Assembly: GCA_905331295.1 (NCBI GenBank)
Contig: CAJNYD010000459.1
Span: forward strand, 124,001 to 188,000
From: Rotaria socialis
Taxonomy: Eukaryota
Direction: 5' to 3'
DNA: 64,000 nucleotides
The notes under the pieces are model-generated. The model was not told the DNA's origin. It saw only the letters and a program-made list of their open reading frames with translations, and searched no databases. Of the stretch, positions 4,172-32,700 are shown piece by piece (position 1 is the first letter of the stretch; each line of letters begins with the position of its first letter). Both the position numbers and the translations under genes were made by a program.

Positions 4172-7100
4172 TAGGGGTGGCACTTTATCTTTACTTTACC
4201 GGGTAAAGTAGAATGTGTATACTTTACTTTACTCAGTAAAGTAAAGTAGTTGACTTTACTTTACCGGGTAAAGTAAAGTAGATCTACTTTACCCGAATAG
4301 TAAAGTAAAGTAAAGTAAAGTAAAGTAGTGAAAATTCCAAATTAATTTTTGATTTTTATCTCGCCGTTGGCGCATCGACAACTTCGCAAAAAATTAATCG
4401 ATACTTAAAATTTTGTCTTTATTGTTAATTTGAGAATAAAAATTGAACAATTTGTAAAATAGATAGTTTGCATATACACATAAACTCGAAGTTTATCTTG
4501 ATTCTATATGCTAGAGAGAATATGTTTTATCGGTATTTTTGAATAAGGCTGAATTGTGGTGGTGAAAAGTGAGTATTAATAAAACTTACTGTGCATTCTC
4601 GTTGTTCGCCAACGTAAGTATAAAATATTAAAAGTAATATCATAGGCATGAGATTTTCTATGATTTTTAAAAGAGAAGTATCTGAAAACCTCGATCAGTA
4701 CACTAAATAGCTATGCATCGAGAAGTTCTTGAATATCCTTGTGCATTTACTTTAACTGATGAATAGGCTTACTGATGTAATACCCTAAGACTGACAATAG
4801 TACTCATATACTCAAAATAATGATAAAGAACTGATTAACTGTAGAAATAAAGCATATGTTGTAGAGGAAATTAAAATCGTTCGTGAATTTTAATTTGCTC
4901 TTGGAGAATTAAAAATTTAAGTTGTTCTAGGGCAATTTAAGATTGACCTAGAGTTTTTATTTCCCCTTCAACATATACTACATATATTATAACGACATTC
5001 TAGTGTCACAAAGCAAAGGTATAAGTGATGATATGTTGAGAATAATTTTGAAAGCCATTCCTTGACTAAGATAATTTTTTCATACAAGCTTGAACCTATT
5101 TTATTTTGAGAAATCAATCATATAAAACCAGTAAAAAGGTCTTATTATTTTACATTTGATTCTTCTAATTCCTAATTTACACAATTTTCTAGAAAAATAC
5201 TGACAGACAAAAAAAAACAAAAAAGGTGAAAAGATAAATGTTTGCTTATTCACGTAAAACCATTGAATATCTCAAAGCTGTTGATGAAAGTGATGATCGG
5301 GCTTTGCGTTGCAAGTATCCTGCAATGCTAAATGCCGACTCACTGGGAACACTTGTTGCAGGTATACAATTGTATTTTTTAACAAACTGTGACAGTTGAG
5401 GAAGAAGCATTTCGTGCTGACACCAGTATTCACTGAATTTAGAACTTGAACCGGCCGTAGACATATAATGACACAGCTCTTCTTTAAATGATAACTGCTT
5501 TTTGATGGAATTTGTTGTTACGTTGGATGCTGAAGGCCTTTTTCACATGCGAAAAAATTCATCCAAAGTTAATTTTTCTTGAGGTGTTGTACTATTTTGA
5601 GTACGTTGGTGCCCTAATGGTGTTGATGTTGACATTGACATCGTCGTTGTTACTGAAGTATCAATTTGTAATCGATCAAATGATTGGGTAACATCAAATT
5701 CTGATAAAAGTGTTCTTTCAGATTCACCAATATCTTCATCAGTTAAATATTGATAAGATGTTGGATCTAAGAAAGCTGCAATCTAACAAAATAAATAAAA
5801 TAAATAAATATTGAATTTCTTTGCATAAAGAAATTGTCAAACTTATGGAGCTATCTAATATACATATTCGAAGATCTGATGTGCAATAAAATATTGCTCT
5901 TATGTTTAGTCTATTTTTTAGAAAAAAATACAAATAAAATATGATAGATCACATGAATCGTATTTCTTTTTTCAAGAAACATGGTTCGTAAAACAAGTTC
6001 TAAATTACTCGTTTTTCTGATGATTTTTTTGCAAAATATTATTTAAGAAGATTATCGAACTATATAGAGTAGGAATAAGCACCTTTGCTAGATATAATGA
6101 CTAACATTATAATAGAAGCGTCACAAGCTGTGGCGAATTTTATGCATGTTTGCCCACAGACTACATTTATTGCGCCTCTATATAATACACTAACTATGTG
6201 CCTTTTAACATTTCAGAAAGACTAAGTAAGAATGTGCTGTAGAAATGTGTTAAACAATTCAGAAGAAAACAATCGCCAGAGGATTCGTAAAATCAGCTAT
6301 ACTGAGTTTTACATTTTAAGTAAGCGCGAGGACTTTACTAAGAGATTTTCTCGAATACAAAAAATTTTTTCGAGTTAACAATAAAGTATACAATTATATT
6401 AACTTATATTATCCTAGCTCAAAAAGTGCTTTTTTCTAAAAATTATTGATGTCTTTCAAAAAATCGATAACTTTAATAAATGTAAATCAGTTATACATAC
6501 TAAAGTTGCACGTTTTTGGTCCCAACTAATTTCTTGCTCAAAATAGTAGCTAAATTTAGCTAGTAACAACTGTTTCAACGAATTTTCTAATGGTTGATCA
6601 TCTTTGCTTTTTGTTAAAAAATTTTTCAATCCTGTTGAAACTGAATAAGCAATAGACAGGGTTGGATATTTTGATCCTGAAAGCAGTGTTGTTGCACGAT
6701 AAAATGGAAATAAAACATTTTTTAATGCTGCCAATATGGACCAATCAAATCGAGAAAATGATAACTGTTGAAGTTTTTCATATTGCTTTTTTTTCAAGCC
6801 AATTTCAATACTAGGTAATACTGTGATATCAGTAATAATAGAACTTAATGCAATGAACCGTGATATCATGGTATAAGTTGTATTCCATCGAATACGGAAG
6901 TGCAAAACAGCATTGTTTAGTTTAACTGGTTTAAGGTTTTGTTCATGTGCAGATCGAACGATTTCTATATTCTTTAATCGTATTTGATTTCGAATATAAC
7001 GATAAAGTACACTTGATTTTCGAATAAATCTAACTAATCTTCTAACACGTTGTAATAAATTGTAAACGATTAACGATAAATCACTGGGGTTAGCAGTAAT

Positions 7101-7650
7101 ACCAATAGTTGTTTGTTCATCATTTTGGCGTTGTTTGCTACCATTTAGTGGTGATAAATCTTCATCGTCGTCTTCAAATTCATCATTATCACTAATATCC
7201 GATGCATTTTCATCAGATAATATATCGGAAGTACTATCATCCTTTGAAAAATCATGTTGATCAGAAATATCACTATCATAATCATCGTCACTAACATCTT
7301 CATGTACTTCTTCATTATCATCAACACTTATTGCTTCATCATCATCATCATCGTCACTATCAGTTTGTTTTGAATCAGTTGTATTTGATGAAGATTTAAA
7401 TCTGTGAAAAAGAAAAAAGTTTGAATACATTTAGATTTTACGATTTACTATCAATATTTTTGTTAGATTTTTTTATCCATGAGAGATAAATCTAGTATGA
7501 GGAAGCTGTAATACAAACTACGACCATTCAAACGTCTAGGCACATTCGCAAAAAATAGGACGTATTACTTAATTGCTATTAATAGAATGATCGATAGAGA
7601 TTTTTACTAGAAAAGCAGCACATATGACAAACAAAAGTTGTTTGAGACAC

Positions 7651-7945
7651 TGTAACGATTAAATGCAGAGAGCGTCCAAATTCCATCCGGGGGTGTAATG
7701 CTCTCGTTCGAGTGTAACCTATACATAAGATTTGGTCTTATGGTGCCATTTATTCTCATCACACCTATTGCCTCTATCTTTCTGTCCTTTACATTTGTCT
7801 TTATCTATCCTTCTTCTTCGTTCTCTCAAATGGTTGAGTATTTAAGCGTGTGCTTTATATGTAATCGATGCGATTTATGATTTGAAGAGTTAAGTAAAGT
7901 GTAATACCATCAACACAGGCATCTCTTCTATCTAAAATCGTCACA
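7651..7945. mobile_element. Solo LTR-like insertion (295 bp) in hAT intron 2
   Basis: TGTAACGATT...AATCGTCACA termini (9/10 inverted match); flanked by 5-bp direct repeat GACAC (7646-7650, 7946-7950). Confidence 0.75.
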
Positions 7946-10422
7946 GACACTATCTAAAAATCCTTGGCGAAAAGTAAAGACTCATGATGAAATTCGAGAA
8001 GAATTTTCGCAGATAGTGGAGCACAGATTTGCAATATATCTGACTGATTTAATTACACACATTTTATGGAAGTTAACTTATTTTTTCTCTAGGTAAATAA
8101 TCAAAGGTTAAACATTTTTATTTCAATTAAATCGATGAAATATATATGACAGTTATTATTATGTCCGCCTATTAAATACCAGATAAATATGAAAAAAAAT
8201 ACAATATCCTACACTCCAGAGCTTCTTAGAACAGCACAAAAATTACTCTTTGATAAATGTTTTGTAAATACCACTCTCAACCTTTTATTTCACCTACTTT
8301 TCTTTCATCCTCATCTGTTACAACATTGAAAGCTCAATTTGACAAAAGAAATTCATGGATTCTTTCGCTTGTGAGTAGTCTGATATTAAATGCACGTGAA
8401 GGGCTGCAATAGAATAATCGTAATATTTTATATTATTTCTCTTCAAGCTTTAAATATATTTCAGCTTTATTTGCTGGAACTTTACTTTATTTATTTATGT
8501 AACCTTAATATAAAACTGAACTGCTAGCTTACTTTTTTGATTTTGTTTTATTAAATAACCATAAGGCATTTTTCACAACCAAATTCAGATTGTGTGCTGC
8601 ACACGATAATCGCATACCAAATGTAGTACCTAATGTAGCGGACTTAATATCAGAACCACCGTCAGTTGTTATTGAAGACACTTTCAATTTTAAATTCATT
8701 TTTCGAAGTTCATTATCAATAAATGATCTAAATTTTTGACCAGTGTGTTTATCATCAAATCGTCGAAATGATAAAATGAAGGATTCATTAACATATGATG
8801 ATGTTAGGATGTGGCAAGTCAAGCAAATGAAAAATTCATTATTTGGACTTTTCCATACATCGGTTGTTAAGCTAATGTGTAATACAGATGACAGTTGTTT
8901 TTTGATAAATGCTCGACGTTGTTGATATAAAATTCCTAGACGTTTTCGAACTGTTTTTCTATTAGGACCTTGATAACCATATTTGATGACCGATAAAAAT
9001 TTTTTCATTCCTGATTTTTGAAAATGATTGAATGGAAGACTATCTTGAACAATAGCTTCAATAGCAGCTTCATCAAGTTTTTTCTTTTCATCAATAGATA
9101 TTAATTTCGATTTTGGCTGTATTTGGTTTTTTTGAGATGGATAAAGAAATTCGATCATTTGATGCATCTTACCCAAATGACTTCGCAAATTAGTATCCGA
9201 AGTTTCATTCATTTTACTAAAAACCTAGGAATCAAATCATACTATTAATATTCAAACATAAAAAAAGGTTTTTCTAAAACGTATTATGAATTATCTGGTA
9301 ATATCTTTTTTTCAACACAATATTTTAAAATATTTAATGAATTAGACGTCTCAGAATGACTATGATTTTATCTACAAAAGGAACGACAACGACGAATTAT
9401 AATAATCTCTATTGCAGCAAAATTCCATTCAAAGTGAGATTTATAGAACCCTATTGAAAAAGTACCACAAGACAATTTTCATAGTCATTACTAGAATTTT
9501 AATCTTCCTTATAAAGATATTATAATTTTGTATGAGTTTCTATTCGTATTAATTTACTAGCTTTAGACTTCTTACAAATAGAAACCGACAGAACATAAAG
9601 TACTATCTTTTCAATGATGTTTTTTCATAGCTTACAGAAAAGTATATTTTGGTAAAGAAATTTTCCGCATTGGTCTACAATTATTATATGATTGGTTATA
9701 GATTAAAATAAATTTAGAGAAGTAGTTGAATCTATTTATGACGTAAAAAATATTTATATTCTAAAAAAGTTACATCTGCGACATGGACGTGAGATGATGG
9801 AGAAGTTTCGAAACGAATATTTTTTATTCTATGCTCTAAAACAAGAACTAATGATGTTTTAATAATTGATACAAACACATAGGCTTTATGAATGTTAAGC
9901 ATAAGTGCATACATATGAGAAACTTCGTAGATTCTAACCTTTTTGTCATCAATATGGTATTATGCTTTTTTTCTTCAGAAAAAAAGTTGAAAAATATGCG
10001 AAATAAGAAGTTCATTATCATGCGCTTTTCAACATGATAAGAAACAGTTATTTGACTTTAGACATATTCTAAAAAAATAAAAGTGCATTAAACACAACAC
10101 GTTGACTTATTTTTTGAAGAATCTTCACCTTAAGGTAAGTTAACAGCCCGAATTCTAAATTCGATGGAACTATCTTCATGATTGTTAGGTAAAGCCAAAT
10201 TTTTGATAGTTATGTATGTGTAATGAAATCGATGTAGAAGAAGACCATTCAATAGATAGCAAAAATACTACATCAAATGAAATGTTTTTACTGCCGAAAA
10301 ACTCTTTTCTATTGACTATGATAAATTTTTATTCACAGTAATCTATGATGGTTTTATTGCTTCTCCTGTTTGTGTCATTTTTTGAGATTTTCTCATTATT
10401 TGCATGATTGAATATTATGGAG

Positions 10423-10647
10423 TGTTACGACCGAAGTGTTCCCCTTCGATCGTAAGACGGAACAAACGAATAATGCACACTCCTTTCTAGTACAGTGGTT
10501 AATACGTCTGCCCGGAAAGCAGGAGGTGCATGGTTCGATTCCATGCGAAGGGGGATTATCCTTTTGTTCCGTTCTGTTGTCATACCATCACGTTGCTGTC
10601 TCGCTGATAACTGAGTATAATAATGTGAGCGAGAAGAAGACATAACA
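10423..10647 (+). mobile_element. Solo LTR-like insertion (225 bp) containing a tRNA-like sequence, in hAT intron 1
   Basis: TGTTA...TAACA termini; 5-bp TSD TGGAG (10418-10422, 10648-10652); internal cloverleaf. Confidence 0.8.
10481..10554 (+). tRNA. tRNA-like sequence (pseudo-tRNA; nominal anticodon GGA, C at position 33)
   Basis: Acceptor TCCTTTC/GAAGGGG, D arm GTA-CAGTGGTTAA-TAC, anticodon arm TCTGC-CCGGAAA-GCAGG, T arm CATGG-TTCGATT-CCATG; short variable loop, which does not fit a real Ser tRNA. Confidence 0.6.
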
Positions 10648-13600
10648 TGGAGTACAGTTCTCCGTTAAATGATGTGTTGAGGCTATCAAATAGGTCGAAT
10701 CTAAAATAGTTGAATGTTTCTTGCTATGTCTATGAGAAAATTGACTCTTCTTAAGCTGAAATTCACTGATATTTTTAATTCTTGTATATCGCTCCTACAT
10801 TTACATTCCAGAGTAAGTTGATCTATCGTATCGAGCATGATCTGTCCTTTCAGAAGGTGCCTTACGTCATATTATCGCTACTTCTCACATTCACTTACTA
10901 CCCATACAGTTGGTGTAGGTATACTCACCGTGAAAAAATTGTTAGCTCTTGTTTAAACAGAATAAGAAAAATAGGGTTCTGAAAGTTTTCTTCATCAATT
11001 TGAGTTACTTCTAGACCTAATTATCTAGTCTGTATTCTTTACTTTACAATCTTTCTCAAACGATGTTTCTTTCTTATTTGAAGTATTCACTAGGACGTTT
11101 GTTCCTTCTTATACTAATTTATTTTCATAAACAGTTATATTGTTAAAAAATTAATTAAAATGCAAAAATAAAATTAGTTACAAGGCGAACAGCTTACTTT
11201 ATTTGAATTTTTACACAAAATACATTTAAAAGAACCATCTGGTTGTCTTGTAAAATAATTAAAAATATCACATTTTGTTGCTGTTGTTGTTCGCTTTACT
11301 TCATGTGTTTCATCAACAGTTTCAATACTACAGTTTAACAATTGATCTGTTTCATTTTGATTTACTGGATGATTATTTACGATTGGATCTGAAATTATTT
11401 CAACGTCATCAAATGATACTGTTGTTCTTTCTGTGGTATCTTGATCCATAGAATCACTTGGTTCATCCGATCGATTCGTGTCATTGTTTCGAGATAAAGT
11501 CGATTTTTTCTTTGCTTTTGAGGAATTTGATGGAGTTTTGGCAGAATTACTTCTTCTTAAAATGGGTTTTACAATTTTTCTATTCAGAGTAGGACTTGTT
11601 GTTGTTGATTTTGAACTAGCATTAACATGATGAAGATTCTTATTTGTATTTGACACTGGAGTTTGAATTGTTATTGTTGATGAAGTGCTGGATCTTAAAT
11701 CACGCTGTGGAATGAAGTTTGTTGTTGATTGTGTGTTCGAATCCATTTTTCATATTATCATATTGCATTCATTTATATCGAAATAAACAGTATTGTTCTC
11801 GTGTTGTTCAACGCATAATAAGAAAAAAAATTCACAACGTAAACACCACAACGATTTTCTCACGCTTATTACTCGACCGTTAGATACACGACAGCTATAC
11901 GAAGAGGGCGAACAACAATATGAATGCGTGCTTCAAGCACGTAATTTATTTTCACCCTGATTTTTTTCATTATCCGTGTGAGGAAAATAGTGCCTTGAAT
12001 TGAATAATGTTCAACGATTTTAATTTAACATTTGTGTGTATGATTTAGGGAGATTTGTTTAAGTTTTCCTTACTTACTTTCTTACAAGATGTGCTTAGAC
12101 TTATATGACTAAGAGTTGAACAGAAAAACTTTTTATCAATAGCAAGATAGCAGCTTTTTTTATTAAATAGAGTAAAATGATTGCATGAATTATATTAAAT
12201 TAAAAACAAAAAAATAACTGATTATTCAATGTAATCTTTGTCATATCAACTCAAGTGATTCTAAGGACATGAAAAACACTCATATCGCTCCTTTTCTTAA
12301 GTACTTCTAGAGATATGTCAACGAAGAAAGTGTGATGAGTGTCATGAAAAAGTGAGTTCTGGAAAATTGCACATCAAAATTTTTGAAAGACGGGTACTCA
12401 TACTGAACTTGTTTTTAGTTTTAACATATTTTTTTAAATAAAATACGATTTGAACCGAAAAAATGTTTTGTAAAACTTTGACAGACTAGCACTTACATAC
12501 GACACACAATCATTATGTCATTGAATATTTAAAACAATACACAAAATATATTAGTGAATCAAAAGATTCCAACTGGAATCATGTGTGAAGTCGATAACAA
12601 CGAAGAAGTAAGACTGAGAAATAAAATCGTAAAAAATATCTATTGCGTTCTAAAAGAGTCCTAAAATTTTATCATAATCAATTCAGCTTATTTACTCGAA
12701 ACATGTTAAAAAGATTCATATCCAAGAGATAATAAAATTCGATGTCTTGCATGAAATAACTTATTTTTACTTCAGAAAAAAATATCAAAAATGAAAAGGC
12801 ATAATTTAAGTATCAATACTAATATTGTAGCTGATTATAAATTAGAGGTTGATCAAATAATTTTCAAAATTTTCTACTTTGTCATGTACGTGTTGATGAA
12901 GCTGAATCTGTTTCGCTTTATTGTGACTTGTATTGGTAATGGTAAAGTAAAATGAAATATCATTTCTTCTTTCGTTTATCCTCTTTTACTTAATATTTCA
13001 ATGTTTTTGACAAAGAAGCTCGAAATTTTCTTTTCTGAACATGTAAACATTTATTCAGCTACTTCTGTTTGAGCAATCATTTAAGTGCAGATTAATTGTG
13101 AATATTCGTATTCTGTGAAAAGCAGTTTGATGATGAAATATCAATATATATGCACAATTTTATTGTATTCAGTTTTATATATGTTCTATACTCCGCCATT
13201 AGTTAAAAAAATATTTTGAATGATTATTCATATCGCTAAACATTATCTATTGTTGATAGTAAGCTAAGAAATTAATCATAAGCTTCCCCTGAATATATGA
13301 CTCTACTTTACTTTACTTTACTTTACTTTACTATTCGAGTAAAGAAGATGTACTTTACTTTACTTTTTCAAAGTAAAATAAAGATAAAGTGCCACCCCTA
13401 TTAGCGACTAAGATCCCATATTAAGCTCTGGAAGAAAATACCATCATACTGTTCAATACATAACGATAATTCTTCCATTGACTTATTCCATATACGACTG
13501 CGAAACCGATATTGTATATGATAATCATGTTCCGTCGATACTAATTTTCGTCTTTCAATGTTGTTAATGCTGTTAGAGCGATCAACTTTAAAGTGATCAA

Positions 13601-15641: not shown

Positions 15642-15762
15642 ACTTTTGAGAAAATGGAAACTGAGAAAAAGCCGAAAATCTTTTTGATTTTTTCTAAAAA
15701 CAGCTTTTTTTCCTCATAGAGGGTGACGAAAATGAATTAGTACAACTTCGCCGAATTTTATT

Positions 15763-16565
15763 TTCGCCGACTCCAACTTCGCCGAATAAAAATCTTGACC
15801 GAAAAATATCGAATCAAATTTGATCCATTCTAGATATAGAATTTTATCCTAACTAACTACTTTAATAGTAACTTGATTAATTAACCCCATCTGACTTGGT
15901 AAGCATCTGAGTTGCTAAGGGGTGTGGGGTATCAACACAGATGGTTACCAAGTCAGTTGGTTACCAAGTCAGTTGGTTACCAAGTCAGTTGGTTACCAAC
16001 TCAGACGGTTACCAACTCAGATGGTTAGCAACTCAGCCGCTATGGCTGAATGATTAAGATGTTCGGCACATATCTACAAGATAGTGTGTTCAAACCTCGG
16101 CGCCATCATCCATAGAATAACCGTAGACAAGTTACTAACGGCTGTTTTGTCTCGGACCACCCATCCGATAGCACGCTGATTACATATGACATACATAAAA
16201 ATATCCTCATGGATAGTATGTGGTTAGTCAGTATGCATGGGAAGCTTAAGTAATTAAGCGGAAGGAACTCTGAGTCAGGCCGGCCTTCTGTCCAGAGCTG
16301 CAGCTAGTAATAGTTGTAGGAAAAATATCGGGCTCTTGAAATTGTCTCCGGACAGCACCCTATACTGAAAGGTAGCCGCAAGGCAAGGGTTTCTTTCTTT
16401 CTTTCTTTCTAGCAACTCAGATGGTTACCAAGTCAGATGGGGTTATTTTAATCAAGTCACTATTAAAGTAGTTAGTTAGGATAAAACTCTATATCTAGGA
16501 TGGATCAAATTTGATTCGATATTTTTCGGTCAAGATTTTTATTCGGCGAAGTTGGAGTCGGCGAA
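15763..16565. mobile_element. Palindromic foldback/MITE element with ~155-bp arms and an internal 16-bp tandem repeat (GGTTACCAAGTCAGTT), interrupted by a SINE
   Basis: 15763-15917 is a near-perfect reverse complement of 16410-16565. Confidence 0.8.
16035..16410 (+). mobile_element. Full-length tRNA-headed SINE-like element with a (TTTC)n tail
   Basis: A-box-like TGGCTGAATGATT and B-box GTTCAAACC; (TTTC)n tail; TAGCAACTC(AG) duplicated on both sides; second copy at 1-189. Confidence 0.8.
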
Positions 16566-16933
16566 AAAAAGATTCAGGGAAGCTGGAATTTACCGACGAA
16601 AATCTTGGAAATTTTTCGGAAAAACGGAACAATGTTGAATGCTTCAATGTTGGAGAAATTGCACTGAAATGTACGCCTCGTGAATTTTTTGTTTCTATAG
16701 ATTTTTCTTGACCTCAGTAGCTGCCGATGAGCCTAAATTTGAGACAATCAGAGATTCTGTATTCGTTTTCCTGCTGATGAAACATTCATCAGTCATGGAA
16801 ATTTTGAATTGGCTATCGATGCATTCCTCGCCTCGCAATAACTTGATTTTGCTATGTATTGCCTCTGTGAAAGATGTAATTGTAAATAATCCAAAGATAA
16901 CATTAATCAGGCCACACATAATAGAGTCACAAG

Positions 16934-17380
16934 TAGGGGTGGCACTTTATCTTTACTTAACTTTGAAAAAGTAAAGTAAAGTAAAGTAAAGTAAAGTAAA
17001 GTAAAGTGACTTGTATTAAGTTAGGCTTATTGTTCATTTTCTAGGCCAGCATCAAGCTCTGATAACGCTGCAGCATACAAAAGTGTTCATCTATGAAAAA
17101 TGTGACCTTTTCATCATTACTGTACTTTATTTTCCACTTTTTTTATGAATAAATCGTTCCAAAAATACTTTCATATGCTGCAGCGTTATTAGTGCATGAT
17201 ACTGGGCTAAAAAATGGGCAACAAACTCAACTTTATTTAATTCACTTTACTTTACTTTACTTTACTTTACTTTACTTTACTTTACTTTTCGGGTAAAGTT
17301 GACTTACTTTACTTTACCGGGTAAAGTAAAGTAGCGAATTTTACTTTAACCGGTAAAGTAAAGATAAAGTGCCACCCCTA
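16934..17380 (+). mobile_element. Non-autonomous hAT element (MITE, 447 bp) of the same family as 4172-13400
   Basis: 25-bp TIRs TAGGGGTGGCACTTTATCTTTACTT; perfect 8-bp TSD GTCACAAG; (GTAAA)n subterminal arrays; internal imperfect palindrome. Confidence 0.93.
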
Positions 17381-18022
17381 GTCACAAGTAGTGACTCCAT
17401 TATTTTCAATGAGGGGGTTGATACTGAAGAGATTTCACGAAATATATAAGATATTTTAAATAAATATTGACACAATACCAATACTCCAACTCACCTCGGT
17501 TCATAAAAATAGTCCTTGATATCTTAACATCAGGTTTGGATCTAGCAATAAGTATTTTCATAGCCAATATTTTGAAAAAGTATGCAAAATCTCGAAAATA
17601 CTAGACAAAAAAATTCGAAATAGTATAGACTGCGTCGGTCTGCAAAAAGATTGTGTTGATCCGCCGGTATAACGGTCGGCCAAGAATCCTAGACCGGCTG
17701 ATTGCCGGTACCGGTTACAGCTCTGACCCACACCCACCCACAAAGCTACGCACGCACACGAACACGGATCGTGATCCACACCCACTGTCATCGTCCCCCA
17801 CCCCCTATTCTAAAATTGTTTTCTGCAATGTATTGTATGGATGTCATTTGTCTGTGTGATGCCTATTTCTTCGATTAAAAAGGTTTGTTCGAATTAAACA
17901 ATTAGAGTGAGGAATATTTCGAAATATTTTGAAAATTATCCTGCTTATTTATGAATTGAAAAAATGAGCTTAGAATGTACAAACTAAAGTTATGTCATGT
18001 TAAATTTGGAGAAAGAAGAAGG

Positions 18023-19717
18023 TTAATAGGTTGCTGGTTGAGAAGAAGCGCTGCGAATCTCGATGGGTTTCGTGAGAATGGCCACCACTTCAGCATAGAT
18101 TTCAAGCATGCCTTTATCATCGCCCCTCAAATCGATTTCATTCCGGAATTTAAGGAGTGATTCTTTGTTTTTCTCGAGTAGATCAACGCCCATGTTAATC
18201 TGTCGCATTTCTTTCACGTTGTTACCCAGGTCCGTTAAGAGTACCTGAAGCGTACCTTCCATGATAACATGTTCTCCTGCGAATTCAGTCTTTTTGGCGC
18301 GGAGATCCGTAACTTCTCGACGAGCTGACTCATGATTCGATTTTGCTTCATTATCTTCGAGAATGACTTTAATTTCGCGTTCTTCCGCTCGATAGGTAGA
18401 AGCCGGTCTGGGCACATTGTCATTGTAAGAAAAGCTAGTGTTATGATTTATTGCGTGGCCGTACTGATTTCCTCCGTTGTCGTGCTGATTTGCTCTGTGA
18501 TCGTAATAATTTGCTCTGTGATCGTAATAATTTGCTCTGTGATCGTAATAATTTGCTCTGTGATCGTAATAATTTGCTCTGTGATCGTAATGATTTGCTC
18601 TGTGACCGTAATGATTTGCTCTGTTGCCGTGCTGGTTTGTTCTGTAATTTTGTTGATTTGCTCCGTGCTTGCGTTGCTGTTTTTCGCTGTTTGGTTGTTG
18701 AAGCGAAGATCCATAATGCGGGTTATAGAACGAGAAAAGCGATGGAGGTGGCTCCACTTGCATCCATTTTGTGACTGTGATGCTTGCTTCTTTCTCCCAC
18801 GTTTTGTTGGCTGACATTGTCGCTCTTGCTCTGCCCAAACTTTCTTCTACAACATATTGTTGACGATCGATTTGGAGCATCTGTATAATGCTTGTAATCG
18901 TATCGTGAATGCATTGTTGAATGTAGCTCTGTTTTATCGCACCAACTACGAAAGCGTTGGTCGACACATTCTCAAAATGAAGGAGTACCCGTTCAAGGTT
19001 TTTCAGAGTTTCCACACTTTCAACGAAATCTCGACGCAAGTTTCGTATGGTCTTGCTTGTGCCAGTTTTCCGATCCCAGCGAAAAAGACTATTTTGCATG
19101 TAAAATACAGTCTTGCGATTCACCTTGAGCAAGTCGTAGAGTACTTCGGATTTGAGATTGGAAGTAGTATCATCACAGTTAGTCAACACAGCGCACATGT
19201 TCTTCATCAAGTCATTGGGCCAGACCTCATGAAGCAGCTGCATGAAGTGTTGAAAAGATGTGCCCAGACGAGAAGTAGAACCGTTGACGACGATAATAAT
19301 ACCATTTAAGTAGGCGACGTCTTGTACTGCCTTTGCGATGTGATAAACGTTGGAATCATCTTTGGAGACACCTTCTGTATCGTTGAAGCCAGGCGTATCA
19401 ATGAGTTGAATGACGAATGTATGCGGTTGTGCTTCTCGTTCACTAAACTCGAGAGTGTGAGTAGTGCAACACAAGGTTTGACTTTTTGTTTGATCTTCAA
19501 TGTCTCGTTCTGTTGATTTTTCTTCACCCAAAATTTTCGTTCGTCGATCCTCCCAATACTTGCAAGGAATAGCAATTTGAACACTGTTTTGCGATCCATT
19601 GAACGCGGAGTCTGGATCATGTGTTCCGTAGCAATAGTTGTAAAAAGCATTGATGAATGAAGACTTGCCTGCACCCGTATCACCGAGAACGATGAAGCGT
19701 TTCACAACTGATGTCAT
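18023..19717 (-). CDS. Intronless TRAFAC-class septin/AIG1(GIMAP)-like GTPase, 564 aa, with a C-terminal coiled coil interrupted by an N/Q/H/Y-rich repeat
   Basis: G1 GDTGAGKS, G2 SQT, G3 DTPG, G4-like TNCD; ATG at 19717 preferred because a TATA box lies at 19789-19782; paralogous to 20178-21662. Confidence 0.88.
   Translation of the reverse strand: MTSVVKRFIVLGDTGAGKSSFINAFYNYCYGTHDPDSAFNGSQNSVQIAIPCKYWEDRRTKILGEEKSTERDIEDQTKSQTLCCTTHTLEFSEREAQPHTFVIQLIDTPGFNDTEGVSKDDSNVYHIAKAVQDVAYLNGIIIVVNGSTSRLGTSFQHFMQLLHEVWPNDLMKNMCAVLTNCDDTTSNLKSEVLYDLLKVNRKTVFYMQNSLFRWDRKTGTSKTIRNLRRDFVESVETLKNLERVLLHFENVSTNAFVVGAIKQSYIQQCIHDTITSIIQMLQIDRQQYVVEESLGRARATMSANKTWEKEASITVTKWMQVEPPPSLFSFYNPHYGSSLQQPNSEKQQRKHGANQQNYRTNQHGNRANHYGHRANHYDHRANYYDHRANYYDHRANYYDHRANYYDHRANQHDNGGNQYGHAINHNTSFSYNDNVPRPASTYRAEEREIKVILEDNEAKSNHESARREVTDLRAKKTEFAGEHVIMEGTLQVLLTDLGNNVKEMRQINMGVDLLEKNKESLLKFRNEIDLRGDDKGMLEIYAEVVAILTKPIEIRSASSQPATY
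18457..18670 (-). repeat. 21-bp coding tandem repeat encoding (RANYYDH)n and variants
   Basis: Plus-strand unit TTTGCTCTGTGATCGTAATAA; 4 identical units flanked by diverged units. Confidence 0.95.
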
Positions 19718-20177
19718 ATTTCTGTTCGCGAGGGGAAGAGATGTAGCAGAGAATATATTGGCAGCAATTCTTGTGTTTCGCTTTTTATAGATAAAAAACT
19801 TGTTGGAAATTTTCATCACGTTATGTAATGACTACAGGTGACTATGTCTGTTGACAAAGTGATCAGTAGCATGGGAACTTCGTTGAAATTAAGTTGACAG
19901 GTTTTTTCCTTCTTTGAAAATTAGGATGATATTGCTATCTTCTGTTGACATAGAATGAATATGATACACGCAAAGACGATGTTTTTCAGCGAATATGGTC
20001 TATGACGAAACTTTCTTTCGTCTGTAACGTGCTACGACGCTACTTGAAACCTGCTATCTTGGATTGGCGCTATCACAAATGAGGGAAAATTTATGAAGAA
20101 ATACTATAAAAGACTTTTATAACATTATCTTTCTTCATCTCGTGTTATATACTTTCTGCAACGTAAAGTACATATCG
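19718..20177. promoter_or_regulatory. Putative bidirectional promoter of the GTPase pair
   Basis: TATAAAA boxes starting 72 bp (minus strand, 19789) and 73 bp (plus strand, 20105) upstream of the respective ATGs, each preceded by GAAAATTT. Confidence 0.65.
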
Positions 20178-21662
20178 ATGTCTTCCCCTTTTCGAAATCA
20201 AAACACGACCCACCCTGATGTGGTCTTAGTGTTCATCGGCGAAAGTGGTTCAGGCAAATCTACGTGCATCAACTACTTCGCAAATTTTTTTGCTGGCACA
20301 GGATACAATCAGCAGTCTGGGTTTTCAAATGTTCATGTCGTCATTCCGAACAATCTCTTTCCTCGAGCCATCGCAGGGTACGCAAGTAGCGAGCGAAACA
20401 TTCTTGATAATACGAAAAGTCAAACCACAAAGTGTAGCGAGTACGATTTTGTATGGCTGGCGAAAGAAAGTCTGAACATCAAAGTTGTGGATACCCCCGG
20501 TTTCAACGACACGGACGACACACGAGACGAAACAAACATTCAAATGATCATCAAAACATTTGCAAAGCTGCCTTTCATCAGTGCGGTTATCATTACGATC
20601 AATGGAACGGTTGCTCGCTTGTCAACATCCATCAAAGCCACATTGAGTCAGCTTCGAGGCTCACTTCCTGACAGCATTTTTGCAAATCTCTTCTTCATCT
20701 TCACTAACTGCGAAGAAACGACGCGTAACTTTAAACTACAACTGATATCTGAGTACAAACCGGAGCCTCAGCGAACATTTCACATGCAAAACTCGCTTTT
20801 CAGCGCTGCTAGTATTGCTGATATCGATAGTGACCCGAAAAAGAAACGTCGAGCCGAAAGCAACTGGCAAGATTCGATCGAAGCGATGACCGATCTGATG
20901 GCCGAAGTCGAGCGAACAGTAACAACATCCACCAAGGTCTTTGCTGATATGCGTATCAAACGCGAGCAATTGTCCGCCAATAAAGCGAATCTATTGGATA
21001 AACAAAAATCTTTACTTTCAGCCATGCACAAGCTCACTCTCGAGCAAGAGCGTCTAAGAAATGCAAAGTCAGATCAATCTGATAATTCAAAATACACGGA
21101 AAATCAAACGATCGAAAAGATTGAAATTGAAAAAAAGAACTACTACAGCACGATCTGTACGGAACATGGCAAGGTGCAAGTGTGCCACGAACATTGTGGT
21201 CTTGGTTATAAGCCTGAGCTCAACTTTGCACATTTTAAAAATTGTGCAGCTGCCGATAGCACTGGAAACAACTGTCGTACATGTCACTGTGGTATGAATC
21301 AGCATTTACATACCTACGAGATTCCAGTTTCGCGCATGGTCACAATTGAGCAGATCGTCCAGTCCAAGAAGGCGGCCTATGATCTAGCTTCGCGGCAAGT
21401 AAGTACAAGTCAACTGCAATTGCTTCAACTAAATGCTACTTACACTGCGCTGCAAAATGACGCCAACGGATGTAAAGATGGCATTCTCAGTTCTATCAAA
21501 GAGCTGAAACAGATTTGCTCTCATTACAATTTTGTCGAAGAAATGGCAACCACCATACAAAAGTTAAGACAGGAAGCAAAGATAGCCCAGGATCTGAAAG
21601 CTAAGACCGAATTCAACAATACGGCAGAAGCTATTGAAAATCTTATCAAGCAAGTGGCATAG
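20178..21662 (+). CDS. Intronless TRAFAC-class septin/AIG1(GIMAP)-like GTPase, 494 aa, with a coiled coil interrupted by a Cys/His-rich module
   Basis: G1 GESGSGKS, G2 SQT, G3 DTPG, G4-like TNCE, FHMQNSLF shared with its partner; CTEH..CHEHC..C..CRTCHC..HLH insert; AATAAA ~55 bp after the stop. Confidence 0.9.
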   Translation: MSSPFRNQNTTHPDVVLVFIGESGSGKSTCINYFANFFAGTGYNQQSGFSNVHVVIPNNLFPRAIAGYASSERNILDNTKSQTTKCSEYDFVWLAKESLNIKVVDTPGFNDTDDTRDETNIQMIIKTFAKLPFISAVIITINGTVARLSTSIKATLSQLRGSLPDSIFANLFFIFTNCEETTRNFKLQLISEYKPEPQRTFHMQNSLFSAASIADIDSDPKKKRRAESNWQDSIEAMTDLMAEVERTVTTSTKVFADMRIKREQLSANKANLLDKQKSLLSAMHKLTLEQERLRNAKSDQSDNSKYTENQTIEKIEIEKKNYYSTICTEHGKVQVCHEHCGLGYKPELNFAHFKNCAAADSTGNNCRTCHCGMNQHLHTYEIPVSRMVTIEQIVQSKKAAYDLASRQVSTSQLQLLQLNATYTALQNDANGCKDGILSSIKELKQICSHYNFVEEMATTIQKLRQEAKIAQDLKAKTEFNNTAEAIENLIKQVA

Positions 21663-21979
21663 CGAAATCAGATGCTTGCGTTCCTCTTCTTGTCAACTTG
21701 CTTTCTTCTCTCATCAATAAACGAGATGCTTGTAAATGTATCATTTTCTTTTATAATAAAAAATGACCACCGAATGTGGTATCATACGAAAGTCTTACTC
21801 TATCTCATTCACACGCTGCATTCGAAATATCACTCCCGTTACGTAGTATAGTAGAAGAAAATATCTCGAACTTACAGCGACGTAACCAGGACTTTTAGAC
21901 CATTGGGCAAACTTCTATTAAGTCAAAAAAAAACATGGGCAAAATTGGCATTTTATTGATAGGCCAAAATTTTTTAACG

Positions 21980-22296
21980 CCCAGGTCGAGCAATCCGACA
22001 GTAGACACCTATCGGAACACATCCGATCCGACTGGAATCCAATAGAATTTTATCGGATCCTGCCAGATCTTACAGAATTATTGTTGGATTCCGGGTCGAG
22101 GAATCGATGTTGGATCCTCAGTGTCGGATTCCTATGAATTCCAAGGAAAAACCGTTGTATGTCATCGGAAGTTCATAGGATTCCGACACTGAGGATCCGA
22201 CATCGATTCCTCGACCCGGAATCCAGTAGAATTGTATCGGATTGTAGGATATTTCCAGGCTCCTATCGGATCCGATGTCGGATCAGTCGACCTGGG
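21980..22296. mobile_element. Palindromic MITE with CCCAGGTCGA termini
   Basis: CCCAGGTCGA...TCGACCTGGG ends; long internal inverted repeat at ~22086-22225; a related end occurs at 61116. Confidence 0.75.
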
Positions 22297-29707: not shown

Positions 29708-32700
29708 ATGGAGTCAAATTTGACGTCGAGTTTCCTGAAAATTAGTGATACAGTAGCATTATATGCTGAAGGCACTGTTTGTGGATTTATTAGCACACTT
29801 GGGTATGATAAGCTATTGTTTTTTTATTCGAATATTTACATATGACATCAATAGGCTTGTCGATGATCGATGTGTTGTACAACCTGACGCCGGTGATTTA
29901 CAAAAACCGCCAAAGAAGTTTCGAGGTTAAAATAAAGAAACAATTCAAACGACCCTATTGACCTTGCTTCGGAAATTATCATTTTCTTTAGATTGTCTAT
30001 TCCGTATTTGTCCGAGTCATCGATATAGTGCTCAAACTCAATATTGGAATGCATTAAAAAGTCCAAATAGTGTACGAGATTTAAAAAAATTACAACTTGC
30101 TGCTGATACAGAAAAACGTCAAAATGAAGAAGAAAGTCGAAAACAGACTGGTACTATCATAAAATATGGCGATACTGTCGTACAATTACTTCATATAAAG
30201 AGTAATAAATATTTAACCGTGAACAAACGTTTACCAGCATTTTTGGAAAAAAATGCCATGCGCGTATCTCTCGATAATAGTGGTACTGAAGGTTCATGGT
30301 TTCAAATCGAACCTTATTATAAACTACGAGCTAAAGGCGAACGTGTTAGTATATTTGTTCTTTGATATGATTAATATTTGTTGTCAAGCAACGAGTATGA
30401 TTTATAGGTTGTAGTAGGTGATAAAGTCGTGTTGATGCCGTACAGTGGTGGGCAACCGTTGCATGTCAGCGAACTAGAACTACCGGATCATCCTGGCTCC
30501 AAAGAAGTATGTGCACATAAATACAGAAAAGAAAAACAAATTATTTTTCTTTTTGAACCACATCGAGCATGATATCATATTTTCCTTTTTGAAAATTTCA
30601 AAGGCTAGAGAGAATTAAAATGTCAACAAAAAACGAAAAGTAAAAATTATTCTCTTCTAGTGCTGCAGTGTTATTAATCTTCACACGGTATTGAGACAGC
30701 AAAAAGAAACGAAATGATTTGTTTAGCTTGAAGTGGAATGAAATTATTATTTCTATTTTGGCATGTGTTATGTGATTGTTTTTTTTTCTCTATTATTTAG
30801 GTCAATTGTCATTCGTATCCTTCCGTATGTTTGATGTGTATTTGTAGACACACGTATCATGTTGACCAGAGAGAAAACTTTCTTTTTTTTCTTTTACTTT
30901 GCCGATTTAATAATAAAAAGTTGCTTTTTTCTTTCGTTCTAAACAATATTTCAGTAGAAGTAGATCTTCATCTATAGCTATCTGTGTAGTAGTGTAACTT
31001 ATTGAGAAGCTTCTTTTTAAAAGTCATTTGGCGAGTAACGGGAGTACTTATGGCTTTATTTATATTTTTATTAAAGAAACGTATAATTAAACATGGACTG
31101 ACTATAGCAATGAGAGTGCAGTCTATGTGACTAATAATAGCATGCCATGTTTTGGGTTTCGCTTGCATGAATATGAAAACAGTTTAGTTTATAATATATT
31201 CATGAAGATCTACTTCGAAAAGTAAAGTAAGATGATCAGTTTTAAAAACTAAGACAGTCAACTTATAAAATATAAAATTCTTATTTTAATGATTCTGCAT
31301 GTAGTACAATACCCCGCCGCTTTGAATATGAATATGTATATTAGGGACGAGTTAAAAATTGTTCTAATTGAAAAATATTTTAAAATAGGTAAATTCTCAT
31401 CTTCAAACAAGTTGGAAAATCGTTTTATTTATGTCATGTCGCGAAGCTACAAATGAAGTACTCAAAAGTGTAAGATTGATTTTCAAAAGAAAATTTTAAT
31501 TCTAAAATTAGAAAAATAAATATAATTCTATGTTGTTTCTTTTTTCACTGATTAAGGGTGATATTGTTCGTTTATTTCATGCTGAACAAGAAAAATTTCT
31601 CACATGTGATAATTACCGGAAAAAAAGTGTCGTGTTTTTACGCGCCACTGGTCGCGCATCAGCAACGTCGGCAACATCATCGAATGCCTTATGGGAAATC
31701 GAAGTCGTTCAACAAGATCCGTGTCGTGGTGGTATCGGTCAATGGAGTTCATTATTTCGTTTTAAACATTTGGCGACAGGACAATATTTAGCAGCTGAAG
31801 TCGATAATGATCAAACATTTGATGCAACACGACAAAAGTTACGTGGTCCACCAGGTACACCTGTTTTTGCTCTTGTTCCTATTCCGCATGGTTACGATAT
31901 ATCATCGATATTTGAACTCGATCCAACAACAATAACACGTAATGAAGAAGCTGTACCATGGGGCTCATATGTACGTTTACAACACATATGCACGAGTACA
32001 TGGGTACATTCGACGAATATTAAATTAGATCCCGATGATGATAATGTACGATTTAAAATTGGTTGTGCATTAACTAAAGAAGATCGAGAAGCATTTCAAA
32101 TAGTACATGTTACACCAGATGAAGTACGAGATTTAGATTTTGCTAATGATGCTGCACAACATCTGGATATAACTGTATCGAAATGGGAAAAACATGGACT
32201 TGCGAATGTAAATGCAAATGATCGAAAGTAAGTAAAATAAAAACTTTATTTTAGGTTGTCTTAAAACTATTACATATTCAAGTAGCCGTACACCAATTAT
32301 AAAGGATTAGTCGGAATGATTCGAAGCTACCAAATAGACAATTATGTAAGATAAAAGAAATTAGAAATGTTATGAAAGATTGTCCAGCAAATTATATATC
32401 AGACTAAATTGATTTATATATTTATGGAATATTAAATTTGAAGAGTCGACTTATTGAATTCAATTTTTAATTATGACAATACTACATATTGAATAGTATC
32501 AATACTAAAAATTTTAGATCTCACGCGACTATAAAACACCAGTAGGTTTTATAATCGGTATCAGACTTGGTTAAAGCATCCTTATCTTCTTATCTAGTGC
32601 AGATTGTTTGTATGGTAAAACAGACCGATTAGAGTTTTTGAAATCTCTCAAGTGTATAGATTAGCATTATGGATGATTCTAATCAAACTTTTTCACTTCG

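What the first reader, a model, noticed from the sequence alone, without database searches (positions are those of the whole stretch)
18400..21311. The same coiled-coil slot holds a Cys/His metal-binding module in one GTPase and a prion-like heptapeptide repeat in the other
Seen: after the G domain both proteins run helix - short beta-like segment - INSERT - beta-like segment - helix. In the plus-strand protein the insert (21138-21311) is C-x2-H..C-H-x-H-C..C..C-x2-C-H-C..H-x-H. In the minus-strand protein (~18400-18755) it is replaced by PPP..QQ..(RANYYDH)n..GGNQYGH, rich in N/Q/Y/H/G. Inference: the insert sits at the tip of an antiparallel coiled coil (like the Rad50 zinc hook) and is a swappable sensing or polymerising module; the repeat could form an amyloid/beta-solenoid or a His/Tyr metal-binding array.
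Basis: partly seen in the sequence, partly recalled or inferred. Interest (0 to 1): 0.75.

Follow-up and report, generated by a model that had tools for sequence, protein, structure and literature searches.

The report
Paired rotifer GTPases with divergent tips
Two related GTP-binding proteins are encoded head-to-head in this rotifer and their relatives appear to stay paired across bdelloid rotifers; one keeps an ancient, likely zinc-binding tip and the other likely lost it and carries a fast-changing loop predicted to be floppy, and the two likely work as a two-part switch, possibly on membranes or in defence, while the 'prion-like' repeat is just one lineage's version of that loop.

Summary
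Two intronless GIMAP/Toc34/septin-like GTPase genes of a Rotaria socialis-like bdelloid lie head-to-head, 460 bp apart. Models and profile alignment put both inserts between the same two strands and stalk helices. In gene A the slot holds a family-wide Cys/His module (matches Pfam DUF8206; 11 near-invariant C/H, one alternating C/H, so likely multi-zinc). It is not a Rad50-type hook. In gene B the slot is low-confidence in the model, 98-387 aa, with no invariant column in 27 relatives. The RANYYDH heptad is a 21-nt minisatellite; related heptads occur in only 2 of 27, so amyloid is unlikely to be the family function. A tree suggests B lost the module, rather than swapped it. An RNA run covers both genes and the repeat, with no splice joint. 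The larger finding: A and B stay paired in 22 of 26 assessable B clusters, their trees are congruent, and an orthologous pair gave weak support for binding (0.51 vs control 0.02). Best reading: a heteromeric GTPase pair with dynamin-like anatomy, a conserved tip on A and a hypervariable tip on B. Function is untested. New variant of a known kind.

The parts
18023..19717 (-). Gene B: intronless paraseptin-like GTPase, 564 aa, disordered-tip member of the pair
   Evidence: ORF; one residue from a named Rotaria socialis protein; covered in pieces by RNA run X9
18980..19708 (-). B GTPase domain: G1 GDTGAGKSS, G2 SQT, G3 DTPG, conserved Arg in NGSTSRL, G4-like TNCDD
   Evidence: best folds GIMAP7/GIMAP2 and Toc33/34
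18755..18961 (-). B outgoing stalk helix (253-303) and first tip strand (308-321)
   Evidence: AlphaFold2; coordinates
18398..18754 (-). B tip insert, predicted disordered, hypervariable across the B subfamily
   Evidence: pLDDT<50 for 326-436; no invariant column; 98-387 aa in 27 relatives
18444..18638 (-). 21-nt coding minisatellite giving the heptads (RANYYDH x4 plus diverged units)
   Evidence: TRF 9.3 copies; four identical units 18506-18589
18197..18397 (-). B second tip strand (441-454) and returning stalk helix (456-507)
   Evidence: coordinates
19718..20177 (.). 460-bp gap between the two start codons; likely shared bidirectional promoter (inferred)
   Evidence: no contig of RNA run X9 lies on 19765-20368 (absence of cover is only a hint)
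20178..21662 (+). Gene A: intronless paraseptin-like GTPase, 494 aa, Cys/His-tip member of the pair
   Evidence: covered from 20461 to 21606 by RNA run X9
20220..20927 (+). A GTPase domain: G1 GESGSGKST, G2 SQT, G3 DTPG, Arg147 in NGTVARL, G4-like TNCEE
20835..21158 (+). A long helix (220-302) and first tip strand (307-327)
   Evidence: coordinates
21156..21311 (+). Cys/His module (DUF8206-like), likely binding several Zn ions
   Evidence: 12 C/H positions conserved in 35-36 of 36 A homologues; 11 in the wide family; Atlas structure match to PF26633, TM 0.59
21303..21656 (+). A second tip strand (376-393), returning helix (395-446) and two C-terminal helices

Best explanation
The two head-to-head genes encode paralogous GIMAP/Toc34/septin-like GTPases that likely work together as a GTP-dependent heteromer, each with a predicted long helical stalk whose tip holds a conserved, likely zinc-binding module in A and a hypervariable, predicted-disordered loop in B. 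Shown: same slot, module conservation, loop variability, transcription of both genes, intact-looking G motifs. Inferred from the tree: an ancestral module-bearing gene duplicated, B lost the module, and the vacant loop grew freely; the heptad is a recent minisatellite expansion within it. Inferred by analogy: G domains meet and tune each other's hydrolysis as GIMAPs do; A's module engages a conserved target, most likely a membrane as the stalk tips of dynamin-like proteins do; B's loop is a flexible, low-constraint spacer or specificity element. The biological role is most likely membrane remodelling or cell-autonomous defence and is untested.
For: Slot homology. Module: 69-72 aa in 42 A slots vs 98-387 aa in 27 B slots; position 330 is C in 86 and H in 27 of 114 modules. 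Pairing: 16 A/B pairs share contig length; neighbouring accessions in Adineta vaga, A. ricciae, A. steineri, Didymodactylos and R. socialis; 22 of 26 B clusters on contigs long enough for two genes. Congruent trees, Mantel rho 0.67, 0 of 5000 shuffles. A, B and their unnamed close relatives form one clade (SH-aLRT 98) among module-bearing proteins. Complex of orthologous pair P0005+P0051: weak support, 0.51 vs best control 0.02; runs agree in at least 29% of contacts; partner pLDDT 67; mark reached by 51 of 78 solved and 2 of 108 mismatched pairs, but at 0.60 or under by only 5 of 78 solved and all 4 passing mismatches. Precedents: GIMAP heterodimers, paired bacterial dynamin-like proteins with variable lipid-binding tips.
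Against: The complex pass is weak, gave no interface, was for an orthologous pair (not the window's own), and close cousins can pass by likeness. Linked genes share a tree whether or not their products bind, so the congruence does not show binding. Orientation was seen only in this window. At least one A (P0035) had no partner in the look-ups, and 4 B clusters on long contigs were not looked up. No membrane-binding, Zn-binding or infection data exist; neither protein has a clear transmembrane segment (maximum 19-residue hydropathy 1.82 and 1.3), and A's module has about zero net charge. Structural matches cover mainly the G domain; mitofusin-2 aligns over the stalk only loosely (Z 13.0, rmsd 9.6 A).
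Confidence: 0.5

Rival explanations
1. The genes are kept together only by a shared bidirectional promoter after an inverted duplication; A and B act separately, each as a homo-oligomer, and B's loop is a near-neutral linker.
For: Head-to-head with 460 bp between starts; residual inverted DNA likeness between the two G domains (I12); most of the wider family was found as single module-bearing proteins (gene context not available); B evolves faster overall (mean identity 43% vs 59%).
Against: Pairing persists through at least three paralogous pair lineages and several genera; the complex model passed its mark, weakly; B keeps its G motifs and both tip strands.
Confidence: 0.22
2. Sensor/executor defence pair: B's loop is a bait or specificity determinant under pathogen-driven selection, and its engagement releases A, whose module acts on a membrane or target.
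For: Allelic or close-copy differences are enriched in B's slot (54 of 734 vs 113 of 2200 sites, p 0.027), not in A's (14 of 348 vs 101 of 2601); family members fuse to stonustoxin-like MACPF domains; bacterial members lie beside a second GTPase and a defence-type reverse transcriptase or dynamins; best PADLOC hit for A is LeoBC, weak (E 2.7e-4); GIMAP5/6 are antiviral.
Against: The enrichment is modest and fits relaxed constraint equally; no dN/dS was possible; B has no PADLOC hit; the infection RNA-seq paper never names such GTPases in its main text and its gene ids could not be mapped.
Confidence: 0.2
3. One reading: the heptad repeat is a functional amyloid/beta-solenoid or His/Tyr metal array that replaces the zinc module as a polymerising or sensing device.
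For: The window's insert is 43% N+Q+Y+G and 12% His; one close relative (P0050) carries related GANQYGY heptads in the same register; the repeat is transcribed.
Against: Only 3 of 27 B inserts are periodic, 2 with heptads; units are identical at DNA level, as in a recent slippage; one R. socialis allele changes three repeat residues; AlphaFold2 gives no structure.
Confidence: 0.08

Closest known systems
GIMAP / AIG1 GTPases (GIMAP7, GIMAP2, GIMAP6) and Toc33/34
   Same: Top structural matches for both G domains (GIMAP7 E 7e-9 for A, 3e-6 for B; Z 14-15); AIG1 Pfam hit just over cut-off; A's Arg147 aligns with the Arg in GIMAP7 LGRYT (its role as catalytic finger is recalled). GIMAPs regulate each other by hetero-dimerisation (PMC9111091, PMC8201404, passages).
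   Different: GIMAPs end in short helices or a membrane anchor; these proteins have a long out-and-back stalk with a strand pair and a tip insert. Identity is only 13-18%.
DUF8206 (PF26633) 'G domain-containing' / 'septin-type G domain' proteins of arthropods, nematodes, fungi, fish, molluscs, incl. stonustoxin-MACPF fusions
   Same: Same G domain plus Cys/His module in the same slot; 5122 clusters at 50% identity match the A profile at E up to 0.001.
   Different: Family has no described function (0 papers name DUF8206). The module-less B partner and the fixed pairing were found only in the rotifer-containing clade here.
Paired bacterial dynamin-like proteins (Campylobacter DLP1/DLP2, LeoA/LeoBC = Eleos), mitofusins
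   Same: Gene pair of paralogous GTPases; G domain + helical stalk + variable tip element (PMC6104087, passages); weak LeoBC profile hit; loose mitofusin-2 and Fzo1 matches over the stalk.
   Different: G domain is closer to GIMAP/Toc than to dynamin; Dynamin_N is below cut-off; no neck/trunk four-helix bundles were shown; tip is a Cys/His module, not a hydrophobic paddle, in A.
Rad50 zinc hook (recalled)
   Same: Metal-ligand motif at the turn between two long helices.
   Different: The hook is one CxxC per chain sharing a Zn between chains (recalled); this module has 11-12 conserved ligands in about 52 residues, and the N-terminal domain is a GTPase, not an ABC ATPase.
Double-GTPase (DO-GTPase) conflict systems of bacteria
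   Same: Two paralogous TRAFAC GTPases, often with zinc ribbons, proposed dimers (PMC7159879, passages).
   Different: Defined by a Walker B glutamate, N-terminal zinc ribbons and a GAP1 partner; here G3 is DTPG, the metal module is C-terminal, and no GAP1 is evident.

Membership tests
AIG1/GIMAP/Toc34/septin-like (paraseptin) GTPase clade | P-loop G1, G2 Thr, G3 DxxG in a TRAFAC fold closest to GIMAP/Toc | tested here: met
   Motifs conserved in both families; Foldseek and VIA top hits GIMAP7, Toc33
AIG1/GIMAP/Toc34/septin-like (paraseptin) GTPase clade | Conserved Arg after the strand following G3 (dimer interface) | tested here: met
   RL motif in the top variants of both alignments, aligned to GIMAP7 LGRYT; its catalytic role is recalled
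AIG1/GIMAP/Toc34/septin-like (paraseptin) GTPase clade | GTP-dependent dimerisation through the G interface | tested here: inconclusive
   Weak complex pass without nucleotide and without interface
GIMAP family proper | AIG1 domain followed by short helices or anchor, vertebrate/plant-type architecture | tested here: not met
   Long stalk plus tip insert in both models; AIG1 score only 27-29 bits vs cut-off 27
DUF8206-containing GTPases | Cys/His module between the stalk helices (gene A) | tested here: met
   Atlas structural match of residues 317-383 to PF26633, meets its bar for a name; same pattern in PF26633-labelled proteins. The local Pfam copy gave no PF26633 hit even for labelled proteins, so no direct HMM score
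DUF8206-containing GTPases | Cys/His module between the stalk helices (gene B) | tested here: not met
   0 of 27 B slots match the pattern; B still groups with A in the tree
Dynamin-like proteins / Eleos | Dynamin_N or LeoA/LeoBC profile over curated cut-off and full length | tested here: not met
   Dynamin_N 26.7 and 12.2 bits vs 27; LeoBC E 2.7e-4 over 72 of 601 positions for A, none for B
Dynamin-like proteins / Eleos | Membrane binding and remodelling through the stalk tip | not testable with these tools
   Needs liposome assays
Rad50 zinc hook | Single CxxC at the coiled-coil apex | tested here: not met
   11-12 conserved C/H
Functional amyloid / prion-like domain | Conserved N/Q/Y/G-rich composition or motif across orthologues | tested here: not met
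   N+Q+Y+G over 35% in 3 of 27 inserts; N+Q 24% at most
Functional amyloid / prion-like domain | Fibril formation; PLAAC/ArchCandy score | not testable with these tools
   Programs and assays not available

The most novel reading that the evidence does not exclude
An undescribed paired immune GTPase system of rotifers that works like paired NLRs: B's hypervariable stalk-tip loop is a pathogen bait or specificity element, A's zinc module is the conserved membrane-engaging executor, and the family is a eukaryote-wide, dynamin-shaped branch of GIMAP-like GTPases whose tip slot accepts different modules (multi-zinc, CxxC ribbon, hydrophobic hairpin, disordered loop) and which reaches into bacterial dynamin/defence loci and pore-forming-domain fusions.
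Probability: 0.2. Interest if true: 0.78.

Novelty: new variant of a known kind. Interest (0 to 1): 0.5.

Why it matters
A family of thousands of unannotated animal, fungal, protist and some bacterial proteins, often mislabelled septin or AIG1, has no described function. The rotifer pair gives it a testable architecture: two small, soluble-looking, intronless genes, one with a conserved tip and one with a free tip. If they form a heteromer acting on membranes or in defence, this links GIMAP-type switches to dynamin-type anatomy and adds a candidate immune system for bdelloids. The specific 'prion-like repeat replaces zinc hook' idea is much weaker.

Tried and rejected
No whole genome is held for this window, so synteny of other copies could not be read from DNA. 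The metagenome scan returned one locus, a spurious P-loop match in an unrelated ORF. The viral scan found no relative. PDB sequence search of the module gave only chance hits, E 0.25 or worse; the module was not folded and searched alone, so its fold novelty is open. NCBIfam gave nothing meaningful. The sigma-70 promoter scan does not apply to a eukaryote and matched chance. RNA run X12 laid no contig, and X10-X12 hold next to none of the words: no evidence either way. No contig spans the whole repeat, so repeat number is supported only by equal 564-aa lengths of three cluster members. All 7 differences in run X9 are non-synonymous, but depth is 4-7 and 7 of 7 is not far from chance; not used. 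Nowell et al. 2024 (PMC11258130): main text has no GTPase mention; supplements list up-regulated GTP-binding genes including an adjacent pair of ids, but ids could not be tied to sequences; Supplementary Data 1 was too large to read and files 9, 11, 16 were not searched, and these may bear on the defence reading. The GIMAP2 structure paper PMC2996681 was not held. Paper searches: DUF8206 0 hits; bdelloid+GTPase+AIG1 2 general reviews; searches listed nothing that describes this family or pair (listings only, apart from the papers named). Earlier findings of this scan: none. Overlapping alternative-frame ORFs over the repeat (18332-18814, 18448-18714, 18451-18774) are by-products of a stop-free minisatellite and were not pursued.
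Full report
Setting. The window is eukaryotic, about 30% GC, with an intron-rich IP3-receptor gene. The minus-strand protein differs by one residue from a protein named Rotaria socialis, so this is a bdelloid rotifer. The two ORFs, B (19717-18023, minus) and A (20178-21662, plus), are intronless, head-to-head, 460 bp apart and 27% identical over the G domain and first helix.

Observation. AlphaFold2 models from family alignments give the same order of elements: G domain, long helix, strand, insert, strand, long helix, two short helices. A is confident throughout (mean pLDDT 85.7); in B residues 326-436 fall below 50. A profile comparison aligns both flanks (probability 100%). Run X9 is RNA: it shows GT..AG joints in the IP3-receptor gene that the DNA run lacks. 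It covers both ORFs in pieces, including the repeat from both sides, with no joint listed.

The A insert. In 36 bdelloid-type A proteins twelve Cys/His positions are present in 35-36 rows. In 114 modules from the wider family eleven of them are near-invariant, and position 330 is Cys in 86 and His in 27; such interchange points to metal ligands rather than disulfides (established knowledge), enough for about three Zn ions (inference). The Atlas matches residues 317-383 to DUF8206, TM 0.59, and whole-protein look-alikes are DUF8206, AIG1 and 'septin-type' proteins of arthropods, nematodes, fungi and fish. The A profile finds 5122 clusters at E up to 0.001. Of the 148 new representatives, 124 had a callable slot (24 were fragments or lacked a flank) and 113 of these hold five or more Cys. 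Of the other 11, two hold a hydrophobic Gly/Ala-rich stretch, two a CxxC..CxxC ribbon (DnaJ-like, recalled), one only three residues, one a partial module, and five look like longer helices or mis-set borders. So the module is the family norm, and the slot does tolerate other fillers. It is not a Rad50 hook.

The B insert. In 27 B proteins with a callable slot (of 30 found; three are truncated or fused) it is 98-387 aa against 69-72 aa in 42 A slots. It has no invariant column, is mostly Ser-rich and polar, and ranges in net charge from -19 to +10. Three of 27 are periodic; two have heptads (the window's, and P0050 with GANQYGY units). Four units in the window are identical at DNA level. This is a recent minisatellite expansion in a permissive loop. 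A quick G-domain tree of 70 rows puts bdelloid A, bdelloid B, three unnamed B-like proteins (two with a callable slot, of 27 and 34 aa) and two unnamed A-like proteins in one clade (SH-aLRT 98) nested among module-bearing proteins (midpoint root, no clade test). The simplest history is duplication, loss of the module in B, then loop growth.

The pair. Of 30 B clusters, four lie on contigs under 2.9 kb, too short for both genes. Of the other 26, one is the window's own, 16 share their longest-contig length with an A hit, and five more were tied by accession or contig length: 22 of 26, with four not looked up. A. vaga accessions are consecutive (UJR07862/3), as are CAM2707925/6 in R. socialis; others differ by 7-21, which I read as neighbours. 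One shared contig is only 4242 bp. R. socialis has at least four pairs, one degenerate. Trees of 17 pairs share three main groups and nested pairs; Mantel rho 0.67, 0 of 5000 shuffles (the B tree is the quick version, and linkage alone can give this). B evolves faster (median end branch 0.51 vs 0.22). Orientation is known only for this window.

Binding. An orthologous pair with a shorter loop (P0005 + P0051) scored 0.51 against a best control of 0.02: weak support; runs agree in at least 29% of contacts, partner pLDDT 67; the mark was reached by 51 of 78 solved and 2 of 108 mismatched pairs, but scores of 0.60 or under came from only 5 of 78 solved complexes and all 4 passing mismatches, and likeness to solved GIMAP or septin dimers may contribute.

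Mechanism. Both G domains match GIMAP7 and Toc33/34 best and keep G1-G4 and the interface Arg. GIMAPs switch each other on or off by hetero-dimerisation (PMC9111091 and PMC8201404, passages). Bacterial dynamin-like proteins mostly come as gene pairs, form heteromers, and carry a variable lipid-binding element at the trunk tip (PMC6104087, passages). I therefore favour a GTP-dependent A:B heteromer in which A's module binds a conserved target, probably membrane, and B's loop is a flexible, weakly constrained element (0.5). Rivals: co-regulated but independent proteins (0.22); a sensor/executor defence pair (0.2); a functional amyloid or metal array (0.08). Defence hints are circumstantial: stonustoxin-like MACPF fusions, bacterial members in tandem with a second family GTPase beside a defence-type reverse transcriptase (L006) or fused to and followed by dynamin-type GTPases (L007), a weak LeoBC hit, antiviral GIMAPs (bioRxiv 2022.12.12.520048, passages), and more variation in B's slot than core (p 0.027).

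Novelty. The searches named under Tried and rejected found no paper on DUF8206 or on this pair; PMC3417536, PMC8195603, PMC7159879 and PMC12107551 were seen as passages and treat AIG/GIMAP-like, double-GTPase or stonustoxin proteins without this architecture. The library lacks most subscription papers. Verdict: a real, undescribed variant of a known kind; the conserved asymmetric pair is the interesting part, the repeat is not. Interest 0.5.

Noticed in passing
L006:3496-7189: Bacteroidetes MAG: a full Cys/His GTPase directly followed by a second protein ending in a family G domain without stalk, next to a reverse transcriptase matching PADLOC RT_UG37. An independent two-GTPase arrangement in a defence-like context.
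   Followed up: partly
L007:4372-9902: Pseudanabaena MAG: dynamin-type GTPase fused N-terminally to the Cys/His GTPase, followed by a second dynamin-type gene.
   Followed up: partly
L002 and L003 (one contig): Contig in a bacterial MAG that looks eukaryotic (AT-rich, gene-sparse); holds three family genes, one with two extra GTPase-less copies of the module-plus-helix unit at its N-terminus. Probably misbinned.
   Followed up: partly
L004:3901-7542: Stonustoxin-like MACPF + thioredoxin-like + FN3 + family GTPase with the module, in a Nitrospirales MAG; probably misbinned animal DNA.
   Followed up: partly
P0046, P0047, P0048 (unnamed): B-like proteins with a long N-terminal extension; two have a very short slot (34 and 27 aa), the third is truncated; sister to bdelloid B.
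   Followed up: partly
P0043 / P0078 (R. socialis): Degenerate pair: A truncated before the module, B's G-domain start joined to LamG/pentaxin lectin domains; may be a gene-model artefact or a lectin fusion.
   Followed up: no
P0031 (unnamed): An A protein with a C-terminal GAQQNTAGAPWNTN-type repeat, so repeat expansions also occur outside the slot.
   Followed up: no
window 15743-16585, 16934-17380, 22085-22225: Inverted-repeat elements flank the pair (138-nt, 28-nt and 54-nt arms); MITE-like (inferred).
   Followed up: no
window 6456-11749: Minus-strand ORF pieces resembling an hAT-type transposase (recalled; no Pfam hit at 1e-4).
   Followed up: no
window 29931-45346 and 49888-51471: IP3-receptor gene (MIR and Ins145_P3_rec hits, spliced in RNA runs) and a GH18 chitinase-like gene.
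   Followed up: partly
window 18000-22000: The pair is intronless and 41-43% GC against about 30% for the window; with the patchy family range this could hint at old gene transfer, not tested.
   Followed up: no
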